NCBI GenBank assembly: GCA_035248345.1
Contig: DATFHO010000045.1
Location: 53,398-117,397, forward strand
Length of the DNA: 64,000 nt
Source: Candidatus Limnocylindrales bacterium
GTDB taxonomy: Bacteria; Chloroflexota; Limnocylindria; Limnocylindrales; CSP1-4
Reading direction: 5' to 3'
In this document: in pieces, positions 6,281 through 54,567 of the stretch
Numbering within the stretch: position 1 is the stretch's first letter
Layout of the letters: each line of letters begins with the position of its first letter
Made by a program: the position numbers and the translations under genes
Notes under the pieces: model-generated
What the model was told of the DNA's origin: nothing
The model's input: the letters and a program-made list of their open reading frames with translations, nothing else
Database searches by the model: none

Positions 6281-7300
6281 CTAGAGGGCTGAGGAAGGCT
6301 CCCGGACCAGCTCCTCGCGGAACAGCACCGGGCGAACCGCGTCCCACGCGATCCACAGGTCCTCGAGGCCCGCGGCGTGCTCGCCGAGCAGCGTCTGCAT
6401 GGACGGCGCGGAGTATTCCGGCCCCGCTGCGGCGAGCAGCTCCTCGGGCGCGGGTCGGGCACCGACGAACAGGAAGGCGATCTCGGCCTGGTTGGGCCAC
6501 GAGCGGAGCCGGCGCGGCTCGACACCGACGTCGGCCAGCGCGCGGGTCACGTCGCGGTAGACCGGCACGCGCGAATCCGCCCAGCCGTCGGCGCCGTCGT
6601 AGCGGTAGCCCATCGAGGCGAGGGAGCCGGCGATCCGGCGGCACTGCTCCACGGTGAACTGGTCCCAGAAGGGCGTGCCCATCGGGAAGTCGATGACGGA
6701 TTCGCGAATGGCGACCGCGGCCATGCCGTCGACGAGCCCGCCGAGCAGCACCTCCCAGTCGCGGCGGCCCGTGCCGGTGCCCGCCACCTCGTCGACCACC
6801 TCGATCAGGGCGAGATGCTCGCCGCGCAGCATCCGCTCGATGGGTGTGCCGTGGACGACGCGGCGCCGGATGCCCTCGAGCTCGCGCGCCGGCTCGGGCT
6901 GGATCTCGACGGCAACCGCTGGACGAGATGGAACGATCGTTCGATCCGCGACCGCTGCCGCGGCGGGAGCCGGAGCCGCAACGGGCGGAGAAACCGGGAC
7001 CTCGATCGGGATGCCGACGGGCGCGCGGCGGGTCGCGCCGTCCCCGCCGTCGGAGGCCCCATCGCCGGTGCGATCGGCCGTCCGTCGGTCGCCCGGACCG
7101 CCCGGCGCTGGGCCGGTCGACGGCGGCATGAACGCGTCCTGGGACAGCGTTTTCGAACGTGAGGGAACTGCCTCACGGGTCACCGTGACGCGGACGTCGC
7201 GCCGCCCCGTGCCCCTGCCAACGACCAGCAGCAGCGCGGAACCGACGGCAACACCGAGGCAGAGGCCGAGGGCCAGGAAGGCCAGCTCGCTCGCGGTCAC
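6281..7300 (-). CDS. membrane-anchored hypothetical protein (N-terminal TM, Pro/Ala-rich linker, conserved-looking C-terminal domain)
   Basis: ORF 6281..7468. I prefer the GTG at 7300, giving (M)TASELAFLALGLCLGVAVGSALLLVVGRG. The upstream 56 codons are Arg/Pro-rich and contain a good promoter-like motif. The C-terminal 200 aa (ERMLRGEHLALIEVVDE...FWDQFTVEQCRRIAGSLASMGYRYDG) look like a folded domain. Confidence 0.55.
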   Translation of the reverse strand: MTASELAFLALGLCLGVAVGSALLLVVGRGTGRRDVRVTVTREAVPSRSKTLSQDAFMPPSTGPAPGGPGDRRTADRTGDGASDGGDGATRRAPVGIPIEVPVSPPVAAPAPAAAAVADRTIVPSRPAVAVEIQPEPARELEGIRRRVVHGTPIERMLRGEHLALIEVVDEVAGTGTGRRDWEVLLGGLVDGMAAVAIRESVIDFPMGTPFWDQFTVEQCRRIAGSLASMGYRYDGADGWADSRVPVYRDVTRALADVGVEPRRLRSWPNQAEIAFLFVGARPAPEELLAAAGPEYSAPSMQTLLGEHAAGLEDLWIAWDAVRPVLFREELVREPSSAL

Positions 7301-7357
7301 GCTGGGGTCGGAAACCTCGAAGTCCAGCGCCGCCCGGGGGCGCCGTCGCCGCGGCCG

Positions 7358-7386
7358 AGGGTAGCTGCGCGCATATGCCGCGTCAA
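7358..7386 (-). promoter_or_regulatory. candidate sigma-A type promoter for the 6281-7300 gene
   Basis: On the minus strand: TTGACG (complement of 7381-7386), a 17-nt spacer, then TACCCT (complement of 7358-7363, TAnnnT). It lies about 55 nt upstream of the GTG at 7300. Confidence 0.35.
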
Positions 7387-7481
7387 CTTGATGACGAGCA
7401 CGCCCGGTCTCGGGTGCAATGCCCGGAATCCGGCGGTAGACTGACCGGGCCGGCCCCGATCGGGACACCGGTTATCGCAGT

Positions 7482-9338
7482 GTGAGGTTCAGCTTCGCCT
7501 TGACCCTCGATGTCCGCCAGGAGTTCCTCGTCCAGCCGGTCGATGCTTCCTGGCTCCAGTGCAACATCGAGTGCCAGGAGGCATGCCCTGTCGGCACGAA
7601 CTGCCGCGGCTACCTGAACCTCGCGGCCGAAGGCCGCTTCGAAGAGGGCTACATCCTCTCCCGCGAGCCAAACCCGGTCGCGGCGATGTGCTCCTACGTC
7701 TGCTCCGCCCCATGCGAGCGCGCCTGCCGGCGCGGTGACATCGATCGCCCGCTCGCCATCCGCGCCATGAAGCGGTTCCTCGTCGAGTGGCACGAGGCGT
7801 CCGGCATCCCCGACGTCATGCCCCACATCGAGGCGCGCGCCGAGAAGGTCGCCGTCGTCGGTGCCGGACCCGCCGGGATCGCCGTCGCCCGTGAGCTCGC
7901 GATGAAGGGCTACGGCGTCGACGTCTACGACAGCCTCCCGTTCGCCGGCGGCACGATGCTCATCGGCGTCCCGGCGTTCCGCCTCCCGCGCGAGGCGATC
8001 GAGATGGACGTCAAGCTCGTCGAACGGCTCGGCGTCACGTTCCACTACAACACCAACATCGGCGTCGACATCGCGTTCGACGATCTTCAGAGCCGCTTCG
8101 ACGCCGTGGCGATCACCGCCGGCGCCATGAACGCGGTTGCGCTCGACGTGCCCGGTGGCGACCTGGAAGGCGTCCAGTACGGCGTCGACTTCATGAAGAA
8201 GGCGAACCTCGGCGAGGAGCTCTACGTCGGCAAGGACGTGGTGGTCATCGGCGGTGGGTACACGGCGATGGACTGTTCCCGCACGTCCCTCCGCCACGGC
8301 GCCGAGAATGTCGCGATCGTGTACCGCCGCACGCGCTCCGAGCTGGTCGTGGACGAGGAAGAGCTCGGCGAGACCGAGCGCGAAGGCGTGCGCATGGAGT
8401 TCCTCGCGAGCCCGGTTGAGGTGCTCGGCGAGGACGGCCACGTGGTCGGCGTGAAGTTCATCCGCAACCGCCTCGGCGAGCCCGATGCGTCCGGCCGCCG
8501 CTCGCCGGTGCCGATCGAGGGCTCCGAGTTCGTGATCAAGGCGGACGTCGTGATCCCGGCCGTGTCCCAGGCCGCGGACCTGACCTTCCTCCCGGTCGAG
8601 GCGGACTTCGAGGTCAACCGCGGCCGCGTGAAGGTCGATCCCGCGACGTACGCGACCAACGTCCGCGGCGTCTTCGCCTGCGGTGACTTCGTGACCGGCC
8701 CGACGACGCTCATCGAGGCTGCCGGCCATGGCAAGAAGTGCGCGTACGCGATCGATCGCTACCTCGCTGGCCGAACGGACGTCACGGTCGCGGCGAACGT
8801 GAAGATGTCCAGCCAGTGGACCTTCGAGATGCCCGAGTTCTACGACGTCCTGCCGCGCCAGCACATCCCGATGACCGCGCTCGCCGAGCGGATGCCGTCC
8901 ACGGATCCGGACGTCAACTTCACGACGCAGGTCGAGCGGGGCTACGACGCGACCGCGGCCGTCGCCGAGTCGACGCGCTGCCTGATGTGCAACTACAACA
9001 TCTGGTTCGACCCGTTCCGGTGCACGCTGTGCGGCGCGTGCGCAGATGTGTGCCCCGAGGGCATCATCCACATGGTCGACATCAACACGCTGAAGTCCGA
9101 GGGCCTCCTGACGGAGCTGGACGAGGCGTACGGCTGGCGCGACGGCGCCGCCATGGTGCTCGACGAGGAGCGGTGCATCCGCTGCGCCCTGTGCGTCAAG
9201 CGTTGCCCGTTCGACGCCATTACGATGGAGCGGTTCGAGCTCCAGGAGATCTCGACCGACGGCCGGCTCTACAAGGAGTCGTACCGGGACGCGCAGCTCG
9301 CCGGGACGCCCGGCGTCGCAGGAGGATCGGTTCGTTGA
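7482..9338 (+). CDS. GltD-like NAD(P)H-dependent FAD/FeS oxidoreductase fused to a C-terminal 2x[4Fe-4S] ferredoxin domain; first gene of the Rieske/cyt b operon
   Basis: 618 aa.
- N-terminal Cys clusters: CNIECQEACPVGTNC...CSYVCSAPCERAC, as in the glutamate synthase small subunit.
- Dinucleotide folds: KVAVVGAGPAGIAVA and KDVVVIGGGYTAMD, plus GVFACGD.
- C-terminal ferredoxin motifs: CTLCGACADVCP and CIRCALCVKRCP (CxxCxxCxxxCP, twice).
- No TM segment.
The stop overlaps the TTG start of cytochrome b (TTGA at 9335-9338). Confidence 0.85.
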   Translation: MRFSFALTLDVRQEFLVQPVDASWLQCNIECQEACPVGTNCRGYLNLAAEGRFEEGYILSREPNPVAAMCSYVCSAPCERACRRGDIDRPLAIRAMKRFLVEWHEASGIPDVMPHIEARAEKVAVVGAGPAGIAVARELAMKGYGVDVYDSLPFAGGTMLIGVPAFRLPREAIEMDVKLVERLGVTFHYNTNIGVDIAFDDLQSRFDAVAITAGAMNAVALDVPGGDLEGVQYGVDFMKKANLGEELYVGKDVVVIGGGYTAMDCSRTSLRHGAENVAIVYRRTRSELVVDEEELGETEREGVRMEFLASPVEVLGEDGHVVGVKFIRNRLGEPDASGRRSPVPIEGSEFVIKADVVIPAVSQAADLTFLPVEADFEVNRGRVKVDPATYATNVRGVFACGDFVTGPTTLIEAAGHGKKCAYAIDRYLAGRTDVTVAANVKMSSQWTFEMPEFYDVLPRQHIPMTALAERMPSTDPDVNFTTQVERGYDATAAVAESTRCLMCNYNIWFDPFRCTLCGACADVCPEGIIHMVDINTLKSEGLLTELDEAYGWRDGAAMVLDEERCIRCALCVKRCPFDAITMERFELQEISTDGRLYKESYRDAQLAGTPGVAGGSVR

Positions 9339-10063
9339 GCTTCCTCGAGCGGGTGGACCAGACCATCCGCCGAAGCCCCGTCTGGCGCTCGCTGTTCCGC
9401 AACCCGTATCCGACGGACGAGCGGTCACGCGCCTACGCGGTCATGAACAATGTGTTCCTCCACCTGCACCCGGTGCGGGTCCGGCAGCACGCGGTGAAGT
9501 TCGCCTACACGTTCTGCCTGGGCGGCCTGTCGTTCTTCCTGTTCCTCGTCCTGACCGTGACGGGCGTCTACCTGATGTTCTTCTACATCCCGTCGACGAC
9601 GCACGCGTACACGGACATCCTGAACATCCAGTCGAGCGTGGCGTTCGGGCAGATCACCCGCAACGTGCACCGGTGGGGCGCCCACCTGATGGTGTTCTTC
9701 GTCTTCCTGCACATGATGCGGGTCTTCTACCACGGGGCCTACAAGCCGCCGCGCGAGTTCAACTGGGTCGTCGGCGTGCTGCTCCTGCTCATGACGATCG
9801 CCCTGAGCTTCACCGGCTACCTGCTCCCGTGGGACCAGATCAGCTACTGGGCCATCACGATCGGCCTGAACATGGCGAGCTACACGCCGGTCATCAACAC
9901 GCCGATCCAGAACTTGATCTTCGGTGGCTTGGAGGTCGGGCAGAACACGCTGCTCCGCTTCTACGTGCTCCACATCATGGTCCTGCCGCTCGTGGCAGCC
10001 ATCCTCCTCGCGGTGCACTTCTGGCGCATCCGCAAGGACGGCGGGATCTCCGGGCCGCTGTGA
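9335..10063 (+). CDS. cytochrome b6-type cytochrome b (N-terminal four-helix half; PetB/QcrB-like)
   Basis: TTG at 9335 with GGAGGA 9 nt upstream. Helix B reads HRWGAHLMVFFVFLH (His 14 residues apart). Helix D reads HIMVLPLVAAILLAVH (His 15 apart, b6-type spacing). Also carries the FCLGG motif and WDQISYWA. Confidence 0.9.
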   Translation: MSFLERVDQTIRRSPVWRSLFRNPYPTDERSRAYAVMNNVFLHLHPVRVRQHAVKFAYTFCLGGLSFFLFLVLTVTGVYLMFFYIPSTTHAYTDILNIQSSVAFGQITRNVHRWGAHLMVFFVFLHMMRVFYHGAYKPPREFNWVVGVLLLLMTIALSFTGYLLPWDQISYWAITIGLNMASYTPVINTPIQNLIFGGLEVGQNTLLRFYVLHIMVLPLVAAILLAVHFWRIRKDGGISGPL

Positions 10064-10066
10064 TCC

Positions 10067-10693
10067 ATGACTGACCAAAAGACCGAGCCGCGCGAGTCAC
10101 GCGGCGCGATCCAGCCGGTCGATCCCGCCCGTCGGACGGAGATCGACAAGCAGCGCGTGCCCATGTCCGCGCGGCCGTACCGGCTGCTCGCGATGGTCAA
10201 GCAGGACGCCGTCGTCCGTGTCCAGAAGGAACCGGACGACACGGTCATGACCTGGCCGCACCTGCTCTCGATCGAGTTCCTCGCGGCGGTCGTCATGAGC
10301 ATCTTCCTGCTGCTCATGGGCCTGTTCATCAACGCGCCGCTCGAGGAGCTGGCGAACGCGAACGTCACCCCGCCGGTCGCGAAGGCGCCGTGGTACCTGC
10401 TCGGGCTGCAGGAGATGCTGGCCTACTTCCACCCGGTCATCTCCGGCGTGCTCGTGCCGTTCCTGTACATCCTCGGCGCCGGCTTCATCCTGCCGTACCT
10501 GGACCGGGCAAACATCGAGGCGAAGAAGCCGTCGGATCGGAAAACCGCCGTCGTGCTGTTCAGCCTGCTGTGCGTGCTCGGCCTCATGGTCACGTTCGTG
10601 GGCGTGTTCTTCCGCGGCCCAGGCTACTCGCTCGTGACGCCGTTCCTGCCCTTCTTCGACAACTTCACCAACGGCCTCCACTTCGCCCTGTAA
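10067..10693 (+). CDS. cytochrome b C-terminal half / subunit IV (PetD-like)
   Basis: 208 aa with three TM helices. The Qo-loop region VTPPVAKAPWYLLGLQEMLAYF aligns with the PEWY(F) segment of PetD. Starts 4 nt after the cyt b stop. Confidence 0.85.
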   Translation: MTDQKTEPRESRGAIQPVDPARRTEIDKQRVPMSARPYRLLAMVKQDAVVRVQKEPDDTVMTWPHLLSIEFLAAVVMSIFLLLMGLFINAPLEELANANVTPPVAKAPWYLLGLQEMLAYFHPVISGVLVPFLYILGAGFILPYLDRANIEAKKPSDRKTAVVLFSLLCVLGLMVTFVGVFFRGPGYSLVTPFLPFFDNFTNGLHFAL

Positions 10694-10706
10694 GACCGAA
10701 GAGCTG

Positions 10707-11381
10707 ATGAGCAACTACCACCTCGCGCCCGCCGACAAGCCGAAGGCCCTCACGCCGCAGGCCCTCAGATCGCTCCGCCAGGATCCCGTCCAGGGCATCT
10801 CTCGCCGGACGCTGCTCCGCCGCTCGATCGGTGGTGCCGCGCTGCTCTGGCTCACCGAGGTCGCGGCCGGGTCCATCGGCTTCCTGTGGCCGAACACGAA
10901 GGGCGGCTTCGGCAGCGTCATCAAGATCGGCAAGATCGCGGACATCAAGTCCGCGAACTCGTCCATCCCGTTCGCGAACGGCTTCCCGGTGTATTACCAG
11001 GAGGCCCGCGCCTACATCATGCTGGTCGACACGGCCCGCCAGGAGTTCATCCCCGGCGAGGACAAGACCGGCGACGGCACCGCGCTGAACGTCCGTGCGC
11101 TCTACCAGCGCTGCCCGCACCTCGGCTGCAAGCCGAACCCGTGCCTCAAGAACTACTGGTTCGAGTGCCCGTGCCACGGCTCCCGCTACGACCGGCTCGG
11201 GATCAAGGCCCAGGGCGCGCAGTACGGCCCGGCGCCGCGCGGGATGGACCGCTTCTCGATCACGGTCGACGCTGACGGCAACCTGATCGTCGACACGTCG
11301 AAGATCACCCTCGGTCCCCTGCCGATTCCGGTTGGCCAGCCCGGCATCATCCCGCCGAAGAGCCCGGTCGGCTGCATCTGA
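10707..11381 (+). CDS. Rieske [2Fe-2S] protein with Tat-type signal/anchor
   Basis: 224 aa. Twin-arginine region ISRRTLLRRSIGGAALLWL. Cluster boxes CPHLGC and CPCHGSRY. Confidence 0.9.
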   Translation: MSNYHLAPADKPKALTPQALRSLRQDPVQGISRRTLLRRSIGGAALLWLTEVAAGSIGFLWPNTKGGFGSVIKIGKIADIKSANSSIPFANGFPVYYQEARAYIMLVDTARQEFIPGEDKTGDGTALNVRALYQRCPHLGCKPNPCLKNYWFECPCHGSRYDRLGIKAQGAQYGPAPRGMDRFSITVDADGNLIVDTSKITLGPLPIPVGQPGIIPPKSPVGCI

Positions 11382-12442
11382 TGACCGACGAAACGAACCG
11401 CCCGGAAGGGTCGGATCGAAGCCTTCCCGCACGACGCGACGCGGACGCCGGGGTACCGGCGCGGACCGCGGATCGGTTCACGGCGCCGCGCCAGACCCGC
11501 GCCGTCGGCGGGCTGACCTCGGAGCGCGCCGCGAAGATCGTGCGGCAGTCGGGCGACGCCCGCTGGGTGGCGTTCCTCGGGCTCGTGATCGTCGCCCTGT
11601 TCGTCATCGTCTATTACTTCTACGAGCTCGGAGTGCCGATCATCAACACGACGCCGCGCATGCAGGCCGAGGCGGACCTCCAGCAGGTCACCTCCGTCGA
11701 GCGCGGGTACAACCTCTTCGAGGCGAACTGCGCGAAGTGCCACGGCGCGAACGGCGAAGGTGGCGTCGGGCCGGTGCTGAACGACCAGAACAAGCTCTTC
11801 TCGCACCTGACCGAGGCCTACATCCGGAACGTCCTTGAGGTCGGCGGCCGGTATGTCTGCGGCAATCCGAAGAGCGTGATGCCGGTGTGGTCGAACACGA
11901 ACGGCGGGCCGCTGAACTACGTCCAGATCGAGGATCTCATCGCATTCATCCGCGCCGATTCCACGCAGGAATACGTAAAGCGGAGCGCGACGCTGAATGA
12001 GCCGATCATCGGAGATGACGGCAAGGTCGAGACGTTCAAGGGTTGGCGCGACGTGACCTTCAAGCCGGATCCGAGCGCATCGCCGGTTCCGGACTGCTAC
12101 CTCGGCGACAAGGGCTCGGCCACACCGGCACCGGCCGCCTCCCTCGGGCCGGACGCGCCGACCTTCAACGTCGTCGGCCTGAACATCGCCTTCGACAAGA
12201 AGACACTCGACGTCGCCGCCAACACGCCATTCGCGATCGACTTCGACAACCAGGATCCCGCCGGTGTCCAGCACAACGTGGAGATCCGGGACGACACGGG
12301 CCAGGTCCTGCAGGACCAGCCGCTCATCGATGGCGGGCAGAAGACCACCTACGTCTACAGCGGACTGCCGGCCGGCACCTACACGTTCATCTGCAAGGTG
12401 CACCCGATCCCCAACATGACCGGCACCTTGACGGTGAAATAG
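11381..12442 (+). CDS. membrane-anchored monohaem cytochrome c fused to a C-terminal type-1 copper (cupredoxin) domain
   Basis: 353 aa.
- TM anchor: WVAFLGLVIVALFVIVYYFY.
- Haem motif CAKCH, with a distal SVMPVW methionine.
- Pro/Ala linker.
- Cupredoxin ligand set: VQHNVEI ... FICKVHPIPNMTGTLTVK (His, Cys, His, Met).
The ATG overlaps the Rieske stop by 1 nt. Confidence 0.85.
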   Translation: MTDETNRPEGSDRSLPARRDADAGVPARTADRFTAPRQTRAVGGLTSERAAKIVRQSGDARWVAFLGLVIVALFVIVYYFYELGVPIINTTPRMQAEADLQQVTSVERGYNLFEANCAKCHGANGEGGVGPVLNDQNKLFSHLTEAYIRNVLEVGGRYVCGNPKSVMPVWSNTNGGPLNYVQIEDLIAFIRADSTQEYVKRSATLNEPIIGDDGKVETFKGWRDVTFKPDPSASPVPDCYLGDKGSATPAPAASLGPDAPTFNVVGLNIAFDKKTLDVAANTPFAIDFDNQDPAGVQHNVEIRDDTGQVLQDQPLIDGGQKTTYVYSGLPAGTYTFICKVHPIPNMTGTLTVK

Positions 12443-12444
12443 CG

Positions 12445-13983
12445 ATGGCCCGAGCGCTTTCCGCTGGTTCCGTGCGCCATCGACGGACCATGTTCGGCCT
12501 GGTCGACAGCGACGGTTGGGCATGGGCGTCGATCAAGGCGTTCATCTGGCTGATCGTGATCATCATGGTCCTCGGGTACATCCCGGACCGCGCCTACTAC
12601 TTCGTGGTCTCACGCACGATCGACCTCGGGATCATCGGCTGGTCGCCGGTGAACCTCTGCCCGCCCGAGAACACCGCCGCGATGCCGTGCCCCGTTCCGG
12701 CCGGCGCGATCCTGCCGTGGCAGGCCGCGGGTGACGCGGCCGCGCTGCCGGCCGCTCGCTACGGCGGCAACGCGATCCAGCTCGGCTCGAACCTGCTGTA
12801 CGCAGGCGGGTCGGACGCGAGCGGGGCCACCTCGACGACGTACGCAACGAAGCTCGACAAGGGCAACTTCGGACCCTGGACCGAGGGCCCGGCACTGCCC
12901 GAGGCGCGCACCGGCGCAGCCGTCACGACGCTCAGCGGCACCGCCTACATGGTGGGCGGCATCGGCCCGGACGGGAAGCCGACGAAGACCGTGTGGACGC
13001 TCGGACTCGACCCCGATACGAACGCGCTCAAGACGTGGTCGACCGTCTGCACCGTCGCGCTCAAGACGGGCGAGACCTGCGCCAACGACAAGCTCCTGAC
13101 GCTGCCGGACGCGCGGACCGGTTCCTCGATCGTCGCGGTCTCGGACGGCTTGCTCGTGATCGGCGGGCGCGGTGCCGACAACAAGCCGACCTCCACGGTC
13201 TGGAAGTCCACGCTCAACGACAAGGGCGTCCTCGGCGCGTTCGCCGAGCAGCCGGGCCTGCCGCATGCGATCACCGACGCCGCGGCCGGGCTGGAGGGCA
13301 CGTTCGTCTTCGTCTATGGCGGCACCGGCGACAGCGGCCCGGTCGGCGGGGTCATGCGCTCTGCCTACGGGAACGTCACGCCGGCCCTCGCAAGCGGCGC
13401 CCCGACCCCGGATCCGAGCGCGGCACCGGCCCAGGGGATCGTCGGCTGGGCGACGCTCGACGCGGCGAACATGCCCGTCGCTCGAACGGGTGGCGCGGGC
13501 TTCTCGGCCAACGGCGCCATGTACTACGCCGGCGGTTCCGACGGCACGAAGACCTACGGTGACGTCTACTGGGCGCTGCCGGACGCCGCAGGCAACCTCC
13601 CCGGTGGCTGGCACCACCTCGACGCGACGGACCTGCCTGGTGGCCTCGTGAACGCCGCGCCGATCGTGGCCGGGACGAACGTGATCCTCATCGGCGGCCA
13701 GGCGGACGGCGGGGCGCTCACCTCGTCGACGCACGCCTCGCTCGCACCGCAGGAGCCCTTCTTCCGGCTGGGCCTGGTCGGCGCCACGGTTCCGGGCCTC
13801 CAGATCTCGGGTGAGATCGGGCAGCAGCTCGGCTACCTCGCGGCTGCGGGTGTCGGCACCGGCAACTTCGTGATCCTCGTGATCGTCGCGTGGGCGTTCA
13901 ACCACCGACCGCAGATCATGGAGTGGCGCGAGCGCCGCAAGCGCGAGAAGGACGCCAAGGTCCCCTCCGAACCCGAAGCGTAA
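12445..13983 (+). CDS. Kelch-repeat beta-propeller protein bracketed by N- and C-terminal TM helices; last gene of the Rieske/cyt b operon
   Basis: Internal ATG at 12445 of ORF 12043..13983, 2 nt after the previous stop. N-terminal TM is IKAFIWLIVIIMVLGYI. Repeats of the type LYAGGSD.., AYMVGGIGPDGKPT.TVW, LLVIGGRGADNKPTSTVW, FVFVYGG and MYYAGGSDG (Kelch GG..W pattern). C-terminal TM is GNFVILVIVAWAF followed by a Lys/Arg/Glu tail. Confidence 0.75.
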   Translation: MARALSAGSVRHRRTMFGLVDSDGWAWASIKAFIWLIVIIMVLGYIPDRAYYFVVSRTIDLGIIGWSPVNLCPPENTAAMPCPVPAGAILPWQAAGDAAALPAARYGGNAIQLGSNLLYAGGSDASGATSTTYATKLDKGNFGPWTEGPALPEARTGAAVTTLSGTAYMVGGIGPDGKPTKTVWTLGLDPDTNALKTWSTVCTVALKTGETCANDKLLTLPDARTGSSIVAVSDGLLVIGGRGADNKPTSTVWKSTLNDKGVLGAFAEQPGLPHAITDAAAGLEGTFVFVYGGTGDSGPVGGVMRSAYGNVTPALASGAPTPDPSAAPAQGIVGWATLDAANMPVARTGGAGFSANGAMYYAGGSDGTKTYGDVYWALPDAAGNLPGGWHHLDATDLPGGLVNAAPIVAGTNVILIGGQADGGALTSSTHASLAPQEPFFRLGLVGATVPGLQISGEIGQQLGYLAAAGVGTGNFVILVIVAWAFNHRPQIMEWRERRKREKDAKVPSEPEA

Positions 13984-49774: not shown

Positions 49775-50905
49775 CTACTTGACCGTCAGCGTCCCGGTCA
49801 TCGCCGGGATCGGGTGGATGGAGCAGATGTAGGTGTAGGTGCCCGGCTGCAGCGCGTCGTACGTGTACGCCTGCGACTTGCCGCCATCCGTCGGTGCCTG
49901 CTTCTTGAGCACGGAGCCATCGCTCGACCGGAGCTCGACGTCGTGCGGCGTCCCCGGAGCGTCCTCGTTCACGAACCAGATCGTGAAGGGCTTTCCGGCC
50001 GCCGTCTCGAGCGTTTTCTCCTTGTACTCGAGCACCTTTGCCTCGACCGTGAGCGCTCCCGGAGGGGCGCCGGCGGCGCCACCCGGAGCGCCGGAACCCG
50101 CGGGCGCGCCCGAAGCGCCGGGAGTGCCGGTGCCGCCACCTGAGGCCACGGACGCGAAGAAGCCGGCCTGGGTGAGCCCGAGGAGGACGAAGGCCAGCGC
50201 GAAGACCTGCAGCGTCCGCAGCGGGAGCGGGATCGCCGGGATGTTCTCGAGGTGGCCGGTCTTGTCGGCCTCGACCGTCTTGCGGTACTCGGCCGTGGCA
50301 TCGAACAGCCAGCCCAGGAGCGTGTAGACGAGGAAGATCACCGCGAGGATCAGGACCCAGCCGCCGACCACGAGGCCGCCGAGGAGCGCCGCGGACCCGA
50401 GCGCGCCCATGAGCGGACGGATCGACGGGCCCGGCATGTGGACGCCGGGTGGCGGACCCTCGTGGATGACCGCCGGCAGCATCGTCCGGTTCTCGAGTTG
50501 GTCGTAGTCGCGGAGCGCGTCGCGCATCCAGACGGTGAGCGTCAGGGCCATGATCACCGCGCCGATCGCGAGCCAGACGCCGCCGAGCACGAGCCCCAGG
50601 AAGAGCATTGCCCCACCGAAGGCGACGACGATCGGTGCCGCGGAGCCGCCCGGCATGTGCACCGAGGCGGGAGTGATCGGCTGGATGCGGGCGGGAGCAC
50701 GTCGGCTCGGACCGAGCGTCGCGAACTTGCGGAACGTGAATGCGAACCAGGCGATGAACAGGAGCGCCAGCAGGAACGGGAGGAGCGCGATCAGCGCTTT
50801 CCAGTCCGGCATGACGAAGATCGACAGGGTGTCGAGGACCGTCGTGACGAGGTCCTTCGCGGACGCTGCCGCCGATGCTGCTGCGGAAGGCGCTGCCGAC
50901 TCCAC
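49775..50905 (-). CDS. polytopic membrane protein with duplicated HMPGxS two-helix module and C-terminal type-1 copper (cupredoxin) domain
   Basis: 376 aa with about six TM helices.
- Internal repeat: VHMPGGSAAPIVVAFGGAMLFLGLVLGGVWLAIGAVIMALTLTVWMRDALRDY versus VHMPGPSIRPLMGALGSAALLGGLVVGGWVLILAVIFLVYTLLGWLFDATAEY.
- Gly/Ala/Pro linker.
- Cupredoxin ligand set: TPHDVEL ... YICSIHPIPAMTGTLTVK. Confidence 0.8.
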   Translation of the reverse strand: MESAAPSAAASAAASAKDLVTTVLDTLSIFVMPDWKALIALLPFLLALLFIAWFAFTFRKFATLGPSRRAPARIQPITPASVHMPGGSAAPIVVAFGGAMLFLGLVLGGVWLAIGAVIMALTLTVWMRDALRDYDQLENRTMLPAVIHEGPPPGVHMPGPSIRPLMGALGSAALLGGLVVGGWVLILAVIFLVYTLLGWLFDATAEYRKTVEADKTGHLENIPAIPLPLRTLQVFALAFVLLGLTQAGFFASVASGGGTGTPGASGAPAGSGAPGGAAGAPPGALTVEAKVLEYKEKTLETAAGKPFTIWFVNEDAPGTPHDVELRSSDGSVLKKQAPTDGGKSQAYTYDALQPGTYTYICSIHPIPAMTGTLTVK

Positions 50906-50917
50906 GAGAGGCCGGCG

Positions 50918-51103
50918 CTAGTCGCCGAGGCCGGCTTCGAGGACCGCGACGAGGAGTCCCATGGCTGCGCCGAGCGCGATCAGCATCGTGACCCCGGCCC
51001 ACTCGATGTGATAGCCGAGGACCGGCGCGAGCCCACCGTAGACGGCGGCCAGCACGACGCAGCTGATTGCGATGATGACCGCGTTGCGGTGACGTCGAAG
51101 CAT
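50918..51103 (-). CDS. small two-helix membrane protein (candidate oxidase subunit IV-like component)
   Basis: Internal ATG at 51103 of ORF 50918..51481, 15 nt after the ctaE stop. Product: MLRRHRNAVIIAISCVVLAAVYGGLAPVLGYHIEWAGVTMLIALGAAMGLLVAVLEAGLGD. The longer ORF version overlaps ctaE out of frame and is rejected. Confidence 0.5.
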   Translation of the reverse strand: MLRRHRNAVIIAISCVVLAAVYGGLAPVLGYHIEWAGVTMLIALGAAMGLLVAVLEAGLGD

Positions 51104-51117
51104 GTCGTCGATCCTCG

Positions 51118-51750
51118 CTACGGGATCAGGTACAGGATCGAGAAGAGCAGGATCCAGACCACGTCGACGAAGTGCCAGTACAGCGACACCGCCTCGACGG
51201 CGTCGTGGTGCTTCGACGAGAACTGGCCGGCCATGCCGCGGTAGAGGACCACGCCGAGCATCAGCACGCCACCGAACACGTGGGCGCCGTGGAAGCCCGT
51301 GAGCGTGAAGTACGTCGTCCCGAACGCGCCCGACCCGAGCGTCATGCCTTCGCCGAACAGCAGGCTGTAGTCGTAGACCTGCATGATCAGGAAGATGATG
51401 CCGAGCACGAACGTGATCGAAATGTTCCGGATGTAGCCCTTCCGGTCGCCCTTGCGGATCGACCAGACGGCGAACTGGCACGTGAACGAGCTCGTGATCA
51501 GCAGGATGGTGGCCAGCATGATCGGCCCGAGCGGGTCGAGGATGTGCTTGAACGCTGCGGGTGGCCAGGGCTGGTTCGCGGCGCGGGTCGCGAAGTACGC
51601 GGCGAACAGGCCGGAGAAGAACATCACCTCGGAGGTGATGAACAGGATCATCCCGAGGATCGGGTTGCTGATCCCTCGCGAGTGCCCGGCCGCGACCGGA
51701 TGCGCCTCGGCGTGTCCGGCGGCGGTCATGGCGTGTGCTTCAGCGGTCAC
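51118..51750 (-). CDS. ctaE: cytochrome c oxidase subunit III
   Basis: 210 aa with five TM helices. Contains FFSGLFAAYF, FTLTGFHGAHVFGG and the C-terminal EAVSLYWHFVDVVWILLF. Confidence 0.9.
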   Translation of the reverse strand: MTAEAHAMTAAGHAEAHPVAAGHSRGISNPILGMILFITSEVMFFSGLFAAYFATRAANQPWPPAAFKHILDPLGPIMLATILLITSSFTCQFAVWSIRKGDRKGYIRNISITFVLGIIFLIMQVYDYSLLFGEGMTLGSGAFGTTYFTLTGFHGAHVFGGVLMLGVVLYRGMAGQFSSKHHDAVEAVSLYWHFVDVVWILLFSILYLIP

Positions 51751-53456
51751 GAGGCGGAGCCTCCGGCGGGGATCGCCTTCGGCGCGTCGTCGTGGCCGGG
51801 GTCGTCATGGCCGCCGTTGCCGTGGCCGCCCGAGAGGAGGCCGTGGCGCTGGTCGAACAGCGGTCGCTCGGAGCGGATGTCCGGCAGGCGGTCGAAGTTG
51901 TAGGGCGGGGGCGGCGAGGACGTCGCCCACTCGAGCGTGTTGCCCTCCCACGGGTCGTCGCCGGCGATCTTGCCGCCGCGCAGCGACACGAGGACGTTCC
52001 AGATGAACGGCAGCATCGAGATGCCGATGATGAAGCCGCCGATGGTGGCGACGAGGTTCCAGTCGTTCCAGCCGGCGTCGCCCGCGTAGTCCGCGATGCG
52101 CCGCGGCATCCCCGCGAGGCCGAGCATGTGCATCGGGAAGAACGTCAGGTTGAACCCGACGAACATCAGCACGAAGTGGACCTTGCCGAGGGTCTCGTCC
52201 AGCATCCGGCCGGTCATCTTCGGGAACCAGTAGTAGATCCCCGCGAACACGCCGAACGCCGAGCCACCGAAGAGCACGTAGTGCAGGTGCGCGACGACCC
52301 AGTAGGTGTCGTGCAGGGCGAAGTCGACGGGCACGGCGGCGCTGAAGGCACCGTTGATGCCGCCGATCAGGAACATCGTCAGGAAGCCGATGGCGAAGAT
52401 CAGCGGCGTCGAGAACGTCAGCTGGCCCCGGAACATCGTGAAGATCCAGTTGAACATCTTCACGCCGGTCGGGACCGCGATCATGAATGTCATCAGCGCA
52501 AAGAACGGCAGGAACACGGCGCCGGTCGTGAACATGTGGTGCGCCCAGACCGAGAAGCCCAGGGCCCCGATGCCCGCCGTGGCGAAGATGAACGCCTTGT
52601 AGCCGAACAGCGGCTTGCGGCTGAAGACCGGCAGGACCTCGCTGATCACGCCCATCGCGGGCAGGACCATGACGTACACCGCGGGGTGCGAGTAGAACCA
52701 GAACACGTTCTGGTAGAGCACCGGGATGCCGCCCGTCTGGAAGTTGAAGAACGATCCGCCGTAGTTGCGGTCGATGAAGAGCATGACCAGGGCGCTGGTG
52801 ATGACCGGCGTGGCCATGACCACGAGGACGCTCGTCACGAGGACGGTCCAGACCATGATCGGCATGCGGAACAGCGTCATGCCCGGGGCGCGCATCTTGA
52901 AGATGGTGACGAGGAAGTTGATGCCGCCGAGGATGGAGCTCGTCCCGATCAGGACGAGCGACACGATCCACAGGTCCTGGCCGGGGCCTGGGGAGGCGAG
53001 CGCGCCGCGCTCCGTGAGCGGCGGGTAGCTCGTCCAGCCGGCGGCAGCAGCGCCGCCCGGCGTCAGGAAGCCCGCGAGGAGGAGGATGCCGCCGAGCGGC
53101 AGCATCCAGAAGCTCAGCGCGTTGATGCGCGGGAACGCCATGTCCGGCGCGCCGATCTGGAGCGGGACGATGTAGTTCCCGAGCCCGGCGAGCATCGGGA
53201 TGATGAACAGGAAGATCATCACCGTCGCGTGGATCGAGAACGACTCGTTGTAGACGTGCTCGTTCGTGAAGATCTGGATTCCGGGCTGCGCGAGCTCCGT
53301 CCGGACCAGCAGGGCGAAGATGCCGCCGATCAGGAAGAACACGAACGAGTTGATGACGTACATGATCCCGATCTTCTTGTGATCGGTGGTCGTCAGCCAC
53401 TCGTAGATGCCGCCTCGGTAGGCCGTGACGGCGGGGCTCAGCGCGTGGGTCGCCAT
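51747..53456 (-). CDS. ctaD: cytochrome c oxidase subunit I (haem-copper oxidase, A-type)
   Basis: 569 aa. Contains TTDHKKIGIMY, FWFYSHPAVYVMVLP, WAHHMFTTG, HDTYWVVAHLHYVLFGG and FPMHMLGLAGMPRR. Confidence 0.95.
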   Translation of the reverse strand: MATHALSPAVTAYRGGIYEWLTTTDHKKIGIMYVINSFVFFLIGGIFALLVRTELAQPGIQIFTNEHVYNESFSIHATVMIFLFIIPMLAGLGNYIVPLQIGAPDMAFPRINALSFWMLPLGGILLLAGFLTPGGAAAAGWTSYPPLTERGALASPGPGQDLWIVSLVLIGTSSILGGINFLVTIFKMRAPGMTLFRMPIMVWTVLVTSVLVVMATPVITSALVMLFIDRNYGGSFFNFQTGGIPVLYQNVFWFYSHPAVYVMVLPAMGVISEVLPVFSRKPLFGYKAFIFATAGIGALGFSVWAHHMFTTGAVFLPFFALMTFMIAVPTGVKMFNWIFTMFRGQLTFSTPLIFAIGFLTMFLIGGINGAFSAAVPVDFALHDTYWVVAHLHYVLFGGSAFGVFAGIYYWFPKMTGRMLDETLGKVHFVLMFVGFNLTFFPMHMLGLAGMPRRIADYAGDAGWNDWNLVATIGGFIIGISMLPFIWNVLVSLRGGKIAGDDPWEGNTLEWATSSPPPPYNFDRLPDIRSERPLFDQRHGLLSGGHGNGGHDDPGHDDAPKAIPAGGSAS

Positions 53457-53469
53457 GCTCGCTGGCTCC

Positions 53470-54567
53470 TTACTGGACCGTGAGAGTGCCGGTCATGTTG
53501 CTGTGGATCGAGCAGAAGAACGTGTACGTCCCGGCCGCGAGCGGCTGGTACGTGTAGTCCTTCTTCGTGCCGCCGGAGATCGTGTCCTGGTTCTCCACGA
53601 CCGTTCCGGAGCTGTCCTTGACGTCGATGTCGTGCGTGATGCTCGACGGATCCGAGTTGGTGAACTCGATGACGAACGGCGCGTTCGCCGGGGCCGTGAG
53701 CGTCTTCGTCAGGAAGTCGATGTTCTTCGCCTCTTCCTTGAGGACCGGCGCGCCCGACGGCGCCGGCGGCGGCGTCGCGTTCTCGACGGCGACGAGGTTC
53801 TGGAGCCACGCGTCGTAGTCCGCCTGGCTCATCGCGGTGACGCTGAAGAGCATCACGCGGTGGCCCGTGCCGCACAGCTCGGCGCACTGGCCGTGGAACG
53901 TCTGGCCGACCTCGTCCTCGTTCACCGTGAACTCGAACTTGTTGATCTGGCCGGGAATGACGTCGCGCTTGAAGAGGAAGCGCGGCACGTACCAGGCGTG
54001 GATGACGTCGCCGCTGGTGAGCGTGACCTGCACCTTCTTTCCGACAGGGACGGCCATGCCGCCGCCCTCGCCGATCGGCTTCGTCTGGGTGGCGACGTGC
54101 TTGCCCTGGGCGTCGAGGTACTCGAACTGCCACTGGAACTGGCCGGCGATCACGTGGATGCGGACGTCCGGGTTATCGGTCGTCGCATCGACCACGTTCA
54201 GCGTGTTCCACGAAAGCCCGAACAGCACCAGGACGATCGCGGTCGGGATGAGCGTCCACAGGACCTCGACGAAGTTGTTGCCGTGGGTCTGGGGCGGCAG
54301 CTCCGTGTCTTCCGGCCGTCGCCGGTAGCGAAGGATGCTCCAGATGATCAGGCCTTCGACCGCGAGGAAGACCGCGACGGCGATCGCGAACACGATGTCG
54401 TACAGCTCGCTCGTCCTGACCGCCTGCGCGGTCGCCGGGGCCGGCGGATAGAGCGATCGACCGGCGCCGCTCAGGAAGACGACCGCGACGATGGCGACCA
54501 GGAGGGCGACGGCACCGCCCGCGACGATTGCGCTGGAGGCGGGGCGCTTCCTCGGGCTGCTCGACAT
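53470..54567 (-). CDS. ctaC: cytochrome c oxidase subunit II with an additional C-terminal type-1 copper (cupredoxin) domain
   Basis: 365 aa.
- Two TM helices.
- CuA site: DVIHAWYVP ... GQCAELCGTGHRVM.
- Pro-rich linker.
- Second cupredoxin: ITHDIDV ... FFCSIHSNMTGTLTVQ (His, Cys, His, Met). Confidence 0.9.
   Translation of the reverse strand: MSSSPRKRPASSAIVAGGAVALLVAIVAVVFLSGAGRSLYPPAPATAQAVRTSELYDIVFAIAVAVFLAVEGLIIWSILRYRRRPEDTELPPQTHGNNFVEVLWTLIPTAIVLVLFGLSWNTLNVVDATTDNPDVRIHVIAGQFQWQFEYLDAQGKHVATQTKPIGEGGGMAVPVGKKVQVTLTSGDVIHAWYVPRFLFKRDVIPGQINKFEFTVNEDEVGQTFHGQCAELCGTGHRVMLFSVTAMSQADYDAWLQNLVAVENATPPPAPSGAPVLKEEAKNIDFLTKTLTAPANAPFVIEFTNSDPSSITHDIDVKDSSGTVVENQDTISGGTKKDYTYQPLAAGTYTFFCSIHSNMTGTLTVQ

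What the first reader, a model, noticed from the sequence alone, without database searches (positions are those of the whole stretch)
7482..13983. Rieske/cytochrome b operon headed by a GltD-like NAD(P)H flavoprotein-ferredoxin fusion
Seen in sequence: six genes are packed with overlaps or very small gaps. These are a TTGA overlap at 9335-9338, a 3-nt gap, a 13-nt gap, a 1-nt overlap at 11381 and a 2-nt gap. That packing argues for one transcript and co-translation.

The first product has every hallmark of the glutamate-synthase small-subunit/NfnB/SudA class: N-terminal Cys clusters, two GxGxxG folds and GVFACGD. It also carries two extra CxxCxxCxxxCP motifs and no TM helix. It is followed directly by b6-type cytochrome b, subunit IV, a Rieske protein and the c-type subunit.

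Established knowledge: canonical bc1/b6f/bcc operons have no NAD(P)-linked flavoprotein. The precedent I know is the anammox (Kuenenia) Rieske/cyt b complexes. There a GltD-like NAD(P) oxidoreductase subunit was proposed to allow quinol-driven NAD(P)+ reduction by bifurcation.

Inference: this may be an analogous NAD(P)-coupled Rieske/cyt b module in a high-GC aerobe that also has an aa3 oxidase. If so, it would be a new physiological context. It could work as reverse or bifurcating electron flow, or as direct NAD(P)H input to the high-potential chain.
Basis: partly seen in the sequence, partly recalled or inferred. Interest (0 to 1): 0.85.

Follow-up and report, generated by a model that had tools for sequence, protein, structure and literature searches.

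The report
NADP-linked Rieske/cytochrome b respiratory complex
An aerobic Chloroflexota (Limnocylindria-type) bacterium has a conserved six-gene operon for a respiratory complex III that appears to carry an NADP(H)-binding iron-sulfur flavoprotein on its cytoplasmic face, a design described so far only in anammox bacteria, so it is probably a widespread bioenergetic module rather than an anammox oddity.

Summary
Six tightly packed + strand genes (7500-13983) encode:
- an NfnB/GltD-type NADP(H) flavoprotein with four predicted [4Fe-4S] sites and no TM helix;
- a b6-type cytochrome b that keeps the haem cn cysteine;
- a 3-TM subunit IV;
- a Rieske protein;
- a membrane-anchored monohaem cytochrome c fused to an auracyanin-like cupredoxin;
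- a Kelch beta-propeller membrane protein.

The complex is homologous to the anammox NAD(P)-linked Rieske/cyt b complexes, not just analogous:
- The flavoprotein aligns over its full length with anammox homologues (39-44% identity).
- The Rieske protein's best PDB matches appear to be the two Kuenenia Rieske structures.
- Cyt b shares their N-terminal extension, including the histidine predicted there to bind an extra interfacial haem.
- Subunit IV shares their KAPWY Qo motif.

Flavoprotein-cyt b adjacency holds in 42/42 close species genomes and 58/59 more distant soil contigs. It also occurs in Thermodesulfobacteriota.

The new elements are an aerobic context with an aa3 oxidase and a cytochrome c-cupredoxin exit module.

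I could not test physical association or the direction of electron flow (quinol to NADP+ versus NADPH input). I class this as a new variant of a known kind, of moderately high interest.

The parts
7500..9338 (+). G1: soluble NfnB/GltD-type NADP(H)-FAD flavoprotein (612 aa; alternative GTG start at 7482). It has two N-terminal Cys clusters (nt 7560-7604 and 7689-7727), GAGPAG (7860-7877), GGGYTA (8250-8267), YRRT (8322-8333) and GVFACGD (8667-8687). A conserved linker leads to a C-terminal 2x[4Fe-4S] ferredoxin domain (CxxCxxCxxxCP at 9021-9056 and 9174-9209).
   Evidence: Pfam Fer4_20 + Pyr_redox_2 + Fer4 x2. PDB phmmer hits: 9bov/9bp5 NfnABC 1e-107, 9n5u, 8oh5_C, NfnB 4ylf_B 2e-89, and FwdF 5t5i for the C-terminus. 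No TM segment. Motif coordinates.
9335..10063 (+). G2: b6-type cytochrome b (242 aa). Four b-haem histidines (H112, H126, H213, H228). Haem cn cysteine C61 in FCLGG (nt 9512-9526). N-terminal n-side extension with the invariant FLH43LHP motif (nt 9455-9472).
   Evidence: Pfam Cytochrome_B 6e-48. Best PDB hit is spinach b6, 1e-51, residues 59-242. N-terminal alignment with anammox and Thermodesulfobacteriota cyt b.
9321..9338 (+). Translational-coupling junction: Shine-Dalgarno AGGAGGA (9321-9327) inside the end of G1, then TTGA where the G2 start overlaps the G1 stop.
   Evidence: Sequence read. The same 4-nt overlap is seen in L002 and L003.
10067..10693 (+). G3: subunit IV-like protein (208 aa, 3 TM). 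Qo motif KAPWY (nt 10382-10396). About 60 aa of cytoplasmic N-terminal extension with YRLLAMVK (10178-10201).
   Evidence: Pfam Cytochrom_B_C. TM scan. Alignment with anammox and Thermodesulfobacteriota SUIV.
10707..11381 (+). G4: Rieske [2Fe-2S] protein (224 aa). Twin-arginine signal-anchor motif SRRTLLRR. Cluster boxes CPHLGC (11112-11129) and CPCHGSRY (11166-11189), which carries the Ser+Tyr pair.
   Evidence: Pfam Rieske. Best PDB hits 9rk3_A and 9rk4_A (E 9e-13 and 4e-12), against 3.5e-7 for actinobacterial QcrA.
11381..12442 (+). G5: N-terminally TM-anchored monohaem cytochrome c (CAKCH, nt 11729-11743) fused to a C-terminal type-1 cupredoxin. The candidate copper ligands are the His of HNVEI (motif aa 298-302) and the Cys, His and Met of CKVHPIPNM (motif aa 338-346).
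   Evidence: Pfam Cytochrom_C + Cupredoxin_1/Copper-bind. In PDB the c domain is nearest to actinobacterial QcrC and the Cu domain nearest to auracyanin A/B. TM and motif scans.
12445..13983 (+). G6: Kelch-repeat beta-propeller protein (512 aa) flanked by N- and C-terminal TM segments. It is the last gene of the operon. Its role is unknown; it could be an accessory subunit or an assembly factor.
   Evidence: Pfam Kelch families. TM scan. Present after G5 in 27/27 close genomes but absent from the 43-56% identity clades, Thermodesulfobacteriota and anammox.
49775..54567 (-). Probable downstream electron acceptor: an aa3-type haem-copper oxidase operon. It comprises CoxII with an extra C-terminal cupredoxin (53470-54567), CoxI (51747-53456), CoxIII (51118-51750) and a CoxIV-like protein with a C-terminal cupredoxin (49775-50905).
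   Evidence: Pfam COX2 + Cupredoxin_1, COX1 (5e-162), COX3, Cyt_c_ox_IV + Cupredoxin_1. The functional link to G5 is inferred, not shown.

Best explanation
The six genes form one operon for a b6-type Rieske/cytochrome b complex of the anammox 'R/b-2/3' class, adapted to aerobic respiration.

Membrane core: cyt b6 (haems bP and bN plus covalent haem cn), a 3-TM subunit IV and a Rieske protein. This core oxidises quinol at the Qo site.

High-potential branch: one electron goes Rieske -> membrane-anchored cyt c -> fused auracyanin-like cupredoxin -> the aa3 oxidase, whose subunits also carry cupredoxin domains.

Cytoplasmic side: the soluble G1 flavoprotein docks through its C-terminal 2x[4Fe-4S] ferredoxin domain onto the family-specific N-terminal extensions of cyt b and subunit IV. 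The proposed wire is haem bN/cn <-> (possibly an extra interfacial haem b on His43 of both cyt b monomers) <-> four [4Fe-4S] clusters <-> FAD <-> NADP(H).

Most likely use (inferred; about 0.45 of my belief): the low-potential electron from Qo bifurcation can leave to NADP+. That would make NADPH from quinol with O2 as the pulling acceptor. It would run as a branch alongside a still-functional Qn site rather than as an obligatory path.

Status of each step:
- Shown: gene content, conservation, homology and motif conservation.
- Inferred: physical docking, the extra haem, NADP specificity and the direction of flow.
For: Operon:
- Overlaps and gaps of 13 nt or less, plus an SD at the G1/G2 junction.
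- No terminator signal above chance.
- Identical six-gene order in 27/27 close species; cyt b immediately downstream in 42/42.
- Same G1-cyt b-SUIV-Rieske-cyt c order in two deeper soil clades (58/59) and in 7 Thermodesulfobacteriota loci. Adjacent in 15 anammox loci.

Homology to the anammox complexes:
- G1 is 39-44% identical over residues ~8-583 to anammox homologues, including the linker and ferredoxin domain and the K-R-CP arginine.
- The Rieske protein's top PDB hits are 9rk3 and 9rk4. Their CPCHGSGF and CPCHGSKY boxes match the Ser/Phe and Ser/Tyr pairs reported for Kustd1480 and Kuste4569.
- The first His of cyt b FLHLHP is invariant. It sits at position 62 in Kuenenia hertensis, matching His62 of Kustd1481, the predicted ligand of the extra haem.
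- Subunit IV shares KAPWY and the YRxLAxVK...TWP n-side segment.

Other support:
- In related clusters a free 94-115 aa 2x[4Fe-4S] ferredoxin gene sits between Rieske and cyt b (L084, L085) or two genes upstream of Rieske (L086), where the flavoprotein would be. This points to the ferredoxin domain as the docking unit.
- YRRT and 45-50% identity to NADPH-dependent NfnB/NfnABC/StnC modules.
- In Kuenenia all subunits co-migrate (cited in PMC12954380).
- aa3 oxidase in the window.
Against: - There is no direct evidence here of physical association or of any activity.
- The NJ tree of the flavoprotein family joins anammox with Thermodesulfobacteriota (82%). It leaves the Limnocylindria clade unplaced (12-28% support), so a single origin of the association is not shown.
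- Stand-alone homologues without nearby cyt b exist in other Chloroflexota and Nitrospinota (8 loci).
- His43 is also kept in the complexes that have only a small ferredoxin. It probably also lies within the match to the Geobacter ExtP model, whose operon has no flavoprotein, so it is not diagnostic of NADP coupling.
- The extra haem is only an AlphaFold3 prediction in another organism.
- Retention of the haem cn cysteine argues that a normal Qn site may still work.
- The driving force for NADP+ reduction against the membrane potential is thin, and the quinone type is unknown.
- The window looks heterotrophic (peptidases, peptide transporters). Such a cell has easier routes to NADPH.
Confidence: 0.7

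Rival explanations
1. NAD(P)H input module. The flavoprotein oxidises NAD(P)H and feeds electrons through its FeS chain into haem cn/bN to reduce quinone at the Qn site, or onward to cyt c. The complex would then be a built-in NAD(P)H:quinone (or NAD(P)H:cyt c) reductase. This resembles the proposed FNR-b6f route of cyclic electron flow in chloroplasts.
For: - The same wiring evidence applies as for the best explanation, and the module is reversible in its solved relatives NfnB/StnC.
- The haem cn cysteine, the hallmark of the b6f-type Qn site, is kept in every flavoprotein-bearing clade. It is lost (Cys->Gly) in the small-ferredoxin clusters.
- An aerobic heterotroph produces NAD(P)H in excess.
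- The authors of the anammox work raise this direction as a possibility.
Against: - It wastes about 250 mV without charge translocation. The anammox authors judged it unlikely for that reason.
- The Rieske protein carries the Ser+Tyr pair, the same pair as Kuste4569. Both Kuenenia Rieske proteins measured above +300 mV, which fits the bifurcation-to-NADP scheme.
- It does not explain why the module is retained in anaerobes with multihaem exits.
Confidence: 0.2
2. Operon hitch-hiker. G1 is a soluble NADPH:ferredoxin-type oxidoreductase with its own unrelated substrate or partner. It is co-transcribed with complex III genes without binding them.
For: - Homologues with the same architecture occur as stand-alone genes in Nitrospinota and other Chloroflexota, with unrelated neighbours.
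- No TM helix.
- The family tree does not resolve a single R/b-linked clade.
Against: - Adjacency is kept across at least three phyla, in two different gene orders, and in more than 100 loci.
- The G1/G2 overlap indicates translational coupling.
- n-side extensions of cyt b and SUIV co-occur with it.
- A free ferredoxin takes the same operon slot in related clusters.
- The Kuenenia subunits co-migrate.
Confidence: 0.06

Closest known systems
Kuenenia stuttgartiensis Rieske/cyt b complexes Kuste4569-4574 and Kustd1480-1485 (anammox 'R/b-2/3', with NAD(P) oxidoreductase subunits Kuste4570 and Kustd1483)
   Same: - NfnB-like FAD/NAD(P) flavoprotein with four FeS sites, encoded next to a split b6-type cyt b.
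- Haem cn cysteine.
- Cyt b N-terminal extension with the conserved His predicted to bind an interfacial haem b.
- KAPWY Qo motif and a shared SUIV N-terminal segment.
- Rieske proteins are the nearest solved relatives, and the Ser/Tyr pair matches Kuste4569.
   Different: - Monohaem cyt c + cupredoxin instead of hexa/octahaem cytochromes and an HAO-like subunit.
- SUIV has 3 TM helices, not 5.
- Gene order is flavoprotein-cyt b-SUIV-Rieske, not Rieske-cyt b-flavoprotein-SUIV.
- An extra Kelch membrane protein.
- The host is an aerobe with an aa3 oxidase, not an anammoxosome-bearing anaerobe.
Cyanobacterial/chloroplast cytochrome b6f (PetB/PetD/PetC), with peripherally bound FNR
   Same: - Cyt b6 core about 50% identical over residues 59-242.
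- Four haem histidines and the haem cn cysteine.
- Split cyt b/SUIV with a 3-TM SUIV.
- The idea of an n-side NADP-linked flavoprotein talking to haem cn (my own knowledge).
   Different: - No cytochrome f and no small Pet subunits.
- A 58-residue N-terminal extension on cyt b that b6 lacks.
- KAPWY instead of PEWY.
- A dedicated operon-encoded FeS flavoprotein unrelated to FNR.
NfnAB / NfnABC / StnABC electron-bifurcating NADP(H) flavoproteins (PDB 4ylf, 5jca, 9bov/9bp5, 9n5u, 8oh5)
   Same: G1 residues ~20-510 align at E 1e-107 to 2e-89. All nucleotide-binding motifs and the N-terminal Cys clusters are kept. The Bfu-type large subunits also continue into the same linker + ferredoxin region.
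   Different: - No NfnA, NfnB(Bfu) or GltB partner gene nearby.
- The partner here would be a membrane cytochrome b.
- There is no formate-dehydrogenase-like C-terminal extension.
Actinobacterial cytochrome bcc-aa3 supercomplex (QcrCAB)
   Same: - High-GC aerobe.
- A TM-anchored c subunit whose haem domain is the nearest solved relative of the G5 haem domain.
- No obvious soluble carrier needed between complexes III and IV. The deeper Limnocylindria clade has a dihaem c, like QcrC.
   Different: - The second haem domain is replaced by a cupredoxin.
- Cyt b is split and of b6 type with haem cn.
- A flavoprotein is present.
- Supercomplex formation is speculation.
Geobacter ExtOPQ (NCBIfam NF040969 'selenite/tellurite reduction operon b-type cytochrome ExtP')
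   Same: G2 scores 300.1 bits against a cut-off of 290, and G3 weakly matches ExtQ. This is the same b6 subfamily.
   Different: The ext operon has multihaem cytochromes, a porin and a rhodanese but no flavoprotein. None of those genes are here. The 'selenite/tellurite' name that PGAP gives Limnocylindria homologues is a naming carry-over, not evidence of function.

Membership tests
NAD(P)-oxidoreductase-bearing Rieske/cyt b complex (anammox R/b-2/3 class) | A GltD/NfnB-like FAD/NAD(P) flavoprotein with multiple FeS sites is encoded directly next to cyt b | tested here: met
   G1 stop overlaps the G2 start. Domains. Adjacency conserved in 42/42 and 58/59 loci.
NAD(P)-oxidoreductase-bearing Rieske/cyt b complex (anammox R/b-2/3 class) | The flavoprotein is homologous over its full length, including the C-terminal ferredoxin domain, to the anammox subunit | tested here: met
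   39-44% identity over residues ~8-583 to Scalindua, Brocadia, Jettenia and Kuenenia hertensis loci. Linker and both Cys motifs align. A single origin is not resolved by the NJ tree.
NAD(P)-oxidoreductase-bearing Rieske/cyt b complex (anammox R/b-2/3 class) | Split b6-type cyt b with a haem cn cysteine, plus an SUIV-like subunit | tested here: met
   FC61LGG aligns with YC35LGG of spinach b6. Cytochrom_B_C domain in G3.
NAD(P)-oxidoreductase-bearing Rieske/cyt b complex (anammox R/b-2/3 class) | Cyt b N-terminal histidine proposed to ligate an extra interfacial haem b (His43 of Kuste4571, His62 of Kustd1481) | tested here: met
   The His is invariant in all clades. It is position 62 in the Kuenenia hertensis orthologue and position 43 in the window protein. 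Haem binding itself is not testable here.
NAD(P)-oxidoreductase-bearing Rieske/cyt b complex (anammox R/b-2/3 class) | SUIV-like subunit with five TM helices | tested here: not met
   G3 is 208 aa with 3 TM. Anammox homologues are 273-312 aa with a C-terminal extension that the window protein lacks.
NAD(P)-oxidoreductase-bearing Rieske/cyt b complex (anammox R/b-2/3 class) | Multihaem (hexa/octahaem) cytochrome c as the p-side subunit | tested here: not met
   G5 has a single CxxCH plus a cupredoxin domain. The Thermodesulfobacteriota relatives do have multihaem c.
NAD(P)-oxidoreductase-bearing Rieske/cyt b complex (anammox R/b-2/3 class) | High-potential Rieske cluster (above +300 mV) | tested here: inconclusive
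   The Ser+Tyr pair in CPCHGSRY matches Kuste4569 and bc1-type high-potential proteins. The potential itself cannot be measured here.
NAD(P)-oxidoreductase-bearing Rieske/cyt b complex (anammox R/b-2/3 class) | The flavoprotein physically co-migrates or assembles with the membrane subunits | not testable with these tools
   No multimer prediction is available. The single-chain AF2 model of G1 was poor (pLDDT 47).
NfnB / GltD (glutamate synthase small subunit) family | Fer4_20 N-terminal FeS domain, two Rossmann folds and the GVFAxGD motif | tested here: met
   NCBIfam family scores are all below the equivalog cut-offs.
NfnB / GltD (glutamate synthase small subunit) family | A partner subunit gene (NfnA or GltB large subunit) is adjacent | tested here: not met
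   The neighbours are cyt b downstream and an unannotated divergent gene upstream.
Geobacter ExtP (NF040969) | HMM score above the curated cut-off | tested here: met
   300.1 bits against a cut-off of 290.
Geobacter ExtP (NF040969) | extHIJKLMNOPQS operon context (multihaem cytochromes, porin, rhodanese) | tested here: not met
   None of these genes are in the operon.

The most novel reading that the evidence does not exclude
In a whole class-to-phylum-level lineage of abundant aerobic soil and freshwater bacteria (Limnocylindria / Ellin6529), the standard complex III may be a 'three-way' enzyme. It would split quinol electrons between O2 (via cytochrome c-cupredoxin-aa3) and NADP+. That is Qo-site bifurcation used for pmf-independent reverse electron flow to NADPH under air. 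The anammox proposal would then be one case of a general, ancient mechanism. The ferredoxin domain docked on an extra interfacial haem would be the universal n-side exit port.
Probability: 0.3. Interest if true: 0.85.

Novelty: new variant of a known kind. Interest (0 to 1): 0.62.

Why it matters
Rieske/cyt b complexes are textbook Q-cycle machines in which the low-potential electron returns to the quinone pool. The anammox proposal, that this electron can instead be exported to NAD(P)+, is still unproven and has been treated as an anammox speciality.

This work shows the same module is fixed in every sampled genome of a widespread aerobic lineage. It is also present in Thermodesulfobacteriota. 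In relatives it has a stripped-down form that carries only the ferredoxin. Three consequences follow:
1. The question becomes a general one about complex III diversity.
2. There is now a much simpler test system: a monohaem/cupredoxin exit, 3-TM SUIV and O2 as acceptor.
3. It corrects a misleading automated annotation ('selenite/tellurite reduction ExtP', 'formate dehydrogenase beta subunit').

If NADPH production from quinol under air is real, it would change how reducing power is budgeted in oligotrophic aerobes.

Tried and rejected
I used an 8-sequence alignment instead.
2. The metagenome scan seeded with P0124, the nearest outgroup at 50% identity, found no close P0124 relatives, so its context stays unknown. 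It did uncover two further R/b-linked clades.
3. The first context look-up (P0114) ended at the contig edge.
The model was unusable, so I ran no fold search.
5. The Biopython bootstrap timed out and I replaced it with a numpy NJ bootstrap. Deep nodes stayed unresolved, so I make no claim about single versus multiple recruitment.
6. Literature searches found the arrangement described only for anammox bacteria, with nothing on Limnocylindria, Chloroflexi or Syntrophorhabdus. The subscription papers ten Brink et al. 2013 and Dibrova et al. 2013 could not be read.
7. I considered the Geobacter ext system as the identity because of the NCBIfam hit. I rejected it on operon content.
8. The promoter/terminator scan gave nothing above chance.
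9. I could not determine whether this is the organism's only complex III, or which quinone it uses. Only 64 kb and +/-10 kb flanks are accessible.

Full report
**1. Observation**

The window is about 70% G+C. Between 7482 and 13983 there are six + strand ORFs with very high third-position G+C (0.82-0.95).
- TTG start at 9335 inside TTGA, preceded by AGGAGGA.
- 3-nt gap.
- 13-nt gap.
- TGATG overlap at 11381.
- 2-nt gap.

Profile searches name the products as follows:
- (1) Fer4_20 + Pyr_redox_2 + two Fer4.
- (2) Cytochrome_B.
- (3) Cytochrom_B_C.
- (4) Rieske.
- (5) Cytochrom_C + Cupredoxin_1.
- (6) Kelch repeats.

Product 1 has no hydrophobic segment that passes a TM threshold. It has 21 cysteines, including two CxxCxxCxxxCP boxes. 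Homologues are 611-612 aa, so the real start is probably TTG 7500. No terminator-like signal above chance lies inside the cluster. Two points sharpen it: the 'c-type subunit' is a cytochrome c-cupredoxin fusion, and gene 6 is a membrane-anchored Kelch propeller.

**2. Organism and surroundings**

Near-identical proteins come from MAGs labelled Candidatus Limnocylindrales or Chloroflexota. The rest of the window encodes peptidases, peptide and sugar ABC transporters and an MttB-family methyltransferase.

It also encodes an aa3-type oxidase operon at 49775-54567 (-). In that operon CoxII and a CoxIV-like protein each carry an extra C-terminal cupredoxin domain. So the host is an aerobic, apparently heterotrophic, high-GC Chloroflexota-related bacterium.

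**3. Conservation of the arrangement**

I ran a genome scan of GTDB species representatives using a family-specific motif ([REK][CF][IVQ][RK]N[REK]LG[EK]P). It returned 589 relatives, of which 80 loci were kept. I searched these with tblastn using the six window proteins.

| Group | Result |
|---|---|
| Close species (G1 at 75% identity or more) | 42/42 have cyt b immediately downstream; 27/27 with at least 6 kb of flank have all six genes in order |
| Thermodesulfobacteriota / Syntrophorhabdus loci | 7 have flavoprotein-cyt b-SUIV-Rieske-cyt c in the same order, followed by multihaem cytochromes |
| Anammox loci (Scalindua, Brocadia, Jettenia, Kuenenia hertensis) | 15 have cyt b immediately upstream (Rieske-cyt b-flavoprotein-SUIV) |
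| Other Chloroflexota and Nitrospinota loci | 8 have a stand-alone homologue with unrelated neighbours |

A metagenome scan added two deeper high-GC soil clades, at 50-56% and 43-47% identity to G1. In these, 58 of 59 contigs with enough flank have cyt b directly downstream and the same order. One of these clades is again labelled Chloroflexota/Limnocylindria. These clades have a cytochrome c subunit without the cupredoxin domain, with two cytochrome c domains in the one 43-47% locus checked (L108). They have no Kelch gene.

**4. Relation to the anammox complexes**

PMC12954380 confirms several points:
- Kuste4569-4574 and Kustd1480-1485 each hold a putative NAD(P) oxidoreductase with FAD and four FeS clusters on the n-side.
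- All subunits co-migrate.
- AlphaFold3 places an extra haem b between the two cyt b monomers, on His43 (Kuste4571) or His62 (Kustd1481).

Four lines show that the window complex belongs to this structural class.

(b) The Rieske protein's best PDB matches are 9rk3_A and 9rk4_A (E about 1e-12). The next match, actinobacterial QcrA, is at 3.5e-7. Their CPCHGSGF and CPCHGSKY boxes fit the Ser/Phe and Ser/Tyr pairs reported for Kustd1480 and Kuste4569. G4 has CPCHGSRY.

(c) Cyt b has a 58-residue N-terminal extension absent from chloroplast b6. The pattern W(R/K)SxFR...NxF(L/M)H(L/I)xP...C(L/M)GG is invariant across the window clade, the deeper soil clades, Thermodesulfobacteriota and anammox. The first His is residue 62 in the Kuenenia hertensis orthologue and residue 43 here.

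(d) Subunit IV shares the unusual KAPWY Qo motif and an n-side YRxLAxVK...TWP segment.

Differences from the anammox complexes:
- SUIV has 3 TM helices rather than 5.
- The exit module is monohaem c + cupredoxin rather than multihaem.
- There is an added Kelch protein.
- The gene order is different.

**5. A modular picture**

I ran a profile search with the cyt b family and context look-ups. These showed related clusters, for example in Candidatus Glassbacteria next to NXR-like genes. In L084 and L085 a free 94-96 aa 2x[4Fe-4S] ferredoxin gene lies between Rieske and cyt b. In L086 a 115 aa ferredoxin gene lies two genes upstream of Rieske. In L085 the ORF was not called by the gene caller. 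It is 31-35% identical to the C-terminal domain of G1.

These cyt b proteins keep the His43 equivalent but have Gly in place of the haem cn cysteine. This suggests that the ferredoxin domain is the unit that docks on the n-side. In some lineages it would then be fused to an NfnB-type NADP(H) module. That reading is an inference.

It also means His43 is not specific to NADP-linked complexes. The NCBIfam ExtP model aligns from residue 36, and Geobacter's ext operon has no flavoprotein. Whether ExtP itself carries the His was not tested.

**6. Mechanism**

What is shown:
- The cofactor-binding motifs.
- The four b-haem histidines and the haem cn cysteine.
- Similarity to NADPH-dependent NfnB, including YRRT.
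- The TM-anchored cytochrome c whose haem domain is closest to actinobacterial QcrC, and whose copper domain is closest to auracyanins.
- The aa3 oxidase with cupredoxin extensions.

What is inferred: quinol is oxidised at Qo. One electron goes Rieske -> cyt c -> cupredoxin -> aa3 -> O2. The other crosses the membrane via bP/bN to haem cn. From there it either reduces quinone (a normal Q cycle) or leaves through the (haem b)-4x[4Fe-4S]-FAD chain to NADP+.

The Ser+Tyr Rieske signature fits a high-potential cluster. The anammox authors argue that such a cluster implies a very low bP potential with menaquinone. The quinone type here is unknown.

The reverse direction (NADPH -> haem cn/Qn) is the main rival. 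Retention of the haem cn cysteine in all flavoprotein-bearing clades is compatible with either direction. Of my belief that G1 is a subunit (about 0.8), I put roughly 0.45 on export to NADP+ and 0.2-0.25 on NADPH input. A pure hitch-hiker role gets about 0.06.

**7. Phylogeny**

An NJ bootstrap tree of the flavoprotein family groups anammox with Thermodesulfobacteriota (82%) and Limnocylindria with P0124 (89%). It does not resolve how these clades relate to the stand-alone clades (12-28%). I therefore make no claim about a single origin.

**8. Novelty**

In the searchable literature, NAD(P)-oxidoreductase-bearing Rieske/cyt b complexes are discussed only for anammox bacteria. Papers on Limnocylindria/Ellin6529 that I could read do not mention this complex. 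I could not read ten Brink et al. 2013 or Dibrova et al. 2013.

Public annotations call G1 'FAD-dependent oxidoreductase', 'glutamate synthase beta subunit-like' or 'formate dehydrogenase beta subunit'. They call the cyt b 'ExtP'. So the link appears unrecognised.

I rate it a new variant of a known kind. It has the same n-side module and cyt b subfamily, with a new p-side module and a new, aerobic physiological context.

**9. Verdict**

Function and direction remain open. Interest is 0.62: a bioenergetics specialist would find the breadth and the aerobic context surprising, and it offers a simpler system for a live question, but the kind of system is already known and nothing biochemical could be tested here.

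Noticed in passing
window 49775-54567 (-): In the aa3 oxidase operon, CoxII and a CoxIV-like protein each carry an extra C-terminal Cupredoxin_1 domain. Together with the cyt c-cupredoxin fusion in G5, this suggests a copper-based relay, or a III-IV supercomplex without a soluble carrier.
   Followed up: partly
L084 5682-5966; L085 5676-5966; L086 4605-4952: Related Rieske/cyt b clusters have a small free 2x[4Fe-4S] ferredoxin gene: between Rieske and cyt b in L084/L085 (next to NXR-like molybdopterin/EB_dh/Nitrate_red_del genes), and two genes upstream of Rieske in L086 (near COX/ATP synthase genes). The L085 ORF was not called by the gene caller. In these clusters cyt b has Gly in place of the haem cn cysteine (FTWGMGG).
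   Followed up: partly
window 9335-10063, and cluster 2: NCBIfam NF040969 scores this cyt b just above its cut-off (300 vs 290 bits). PGAP therefore names Limnocylindria homologues 'selenite/tellurite reduction operon b-type cytochrome ExtP', although no ext genes are present. This is probably a systematic mis-annotation.
   Followed up: yes
window 12445-13983: The Kelch beta-propeller protein with TM segments at both ends is always the last operon gene in the window's clade. It is absent from every other clade that has the flavoprotein-R/b operon. Its function is unknown.
   Followed up: partly
L029-L038, L044, L052 (e.g. L044 9908-11752; L030 9746-11938): Stand-alone homologues of the flavoprotein, with the same linker and ferredoxin domain, occur in Nitrospinota and other Chloroflexota with unrelated neighbours (secretin, nitroreductase, glycosyltransferases). 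Whether they serve an R/b complex encoded elsewhere is unknown.
   Followed up: partly
window 6281-7468 (-): A divergently transcribed 395-aa ORF with no Pfam match lies upstream of the operon. An unannotated gene occupies the same position in L001 and L002, so it is a conserved neighbour of unknown function.
   Followed up: no
L040 and L041: Two contigs of the same MAG (MFD01721.bin.3.303) both carry the complete operon, with identical percent identities to the window. This is either a genuine duplication or redundant assembly/binning.
   Followed up: no
window 7383-9428 (-) and other long antisense ORFs: A 681-aa ORF runs antisense across the whole flavoprotein gene. Long shadow ORFs like this are common in this 70% G+C window and are not genes.
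   Followed up: no
window 21785-23347 (+): A full-length MttB-family (trimethylamine/glycine-betaine methyltransferase-like) protein (Pfam E 6e-186) in an aerobic Chloroflexota context.
   Followed up: no
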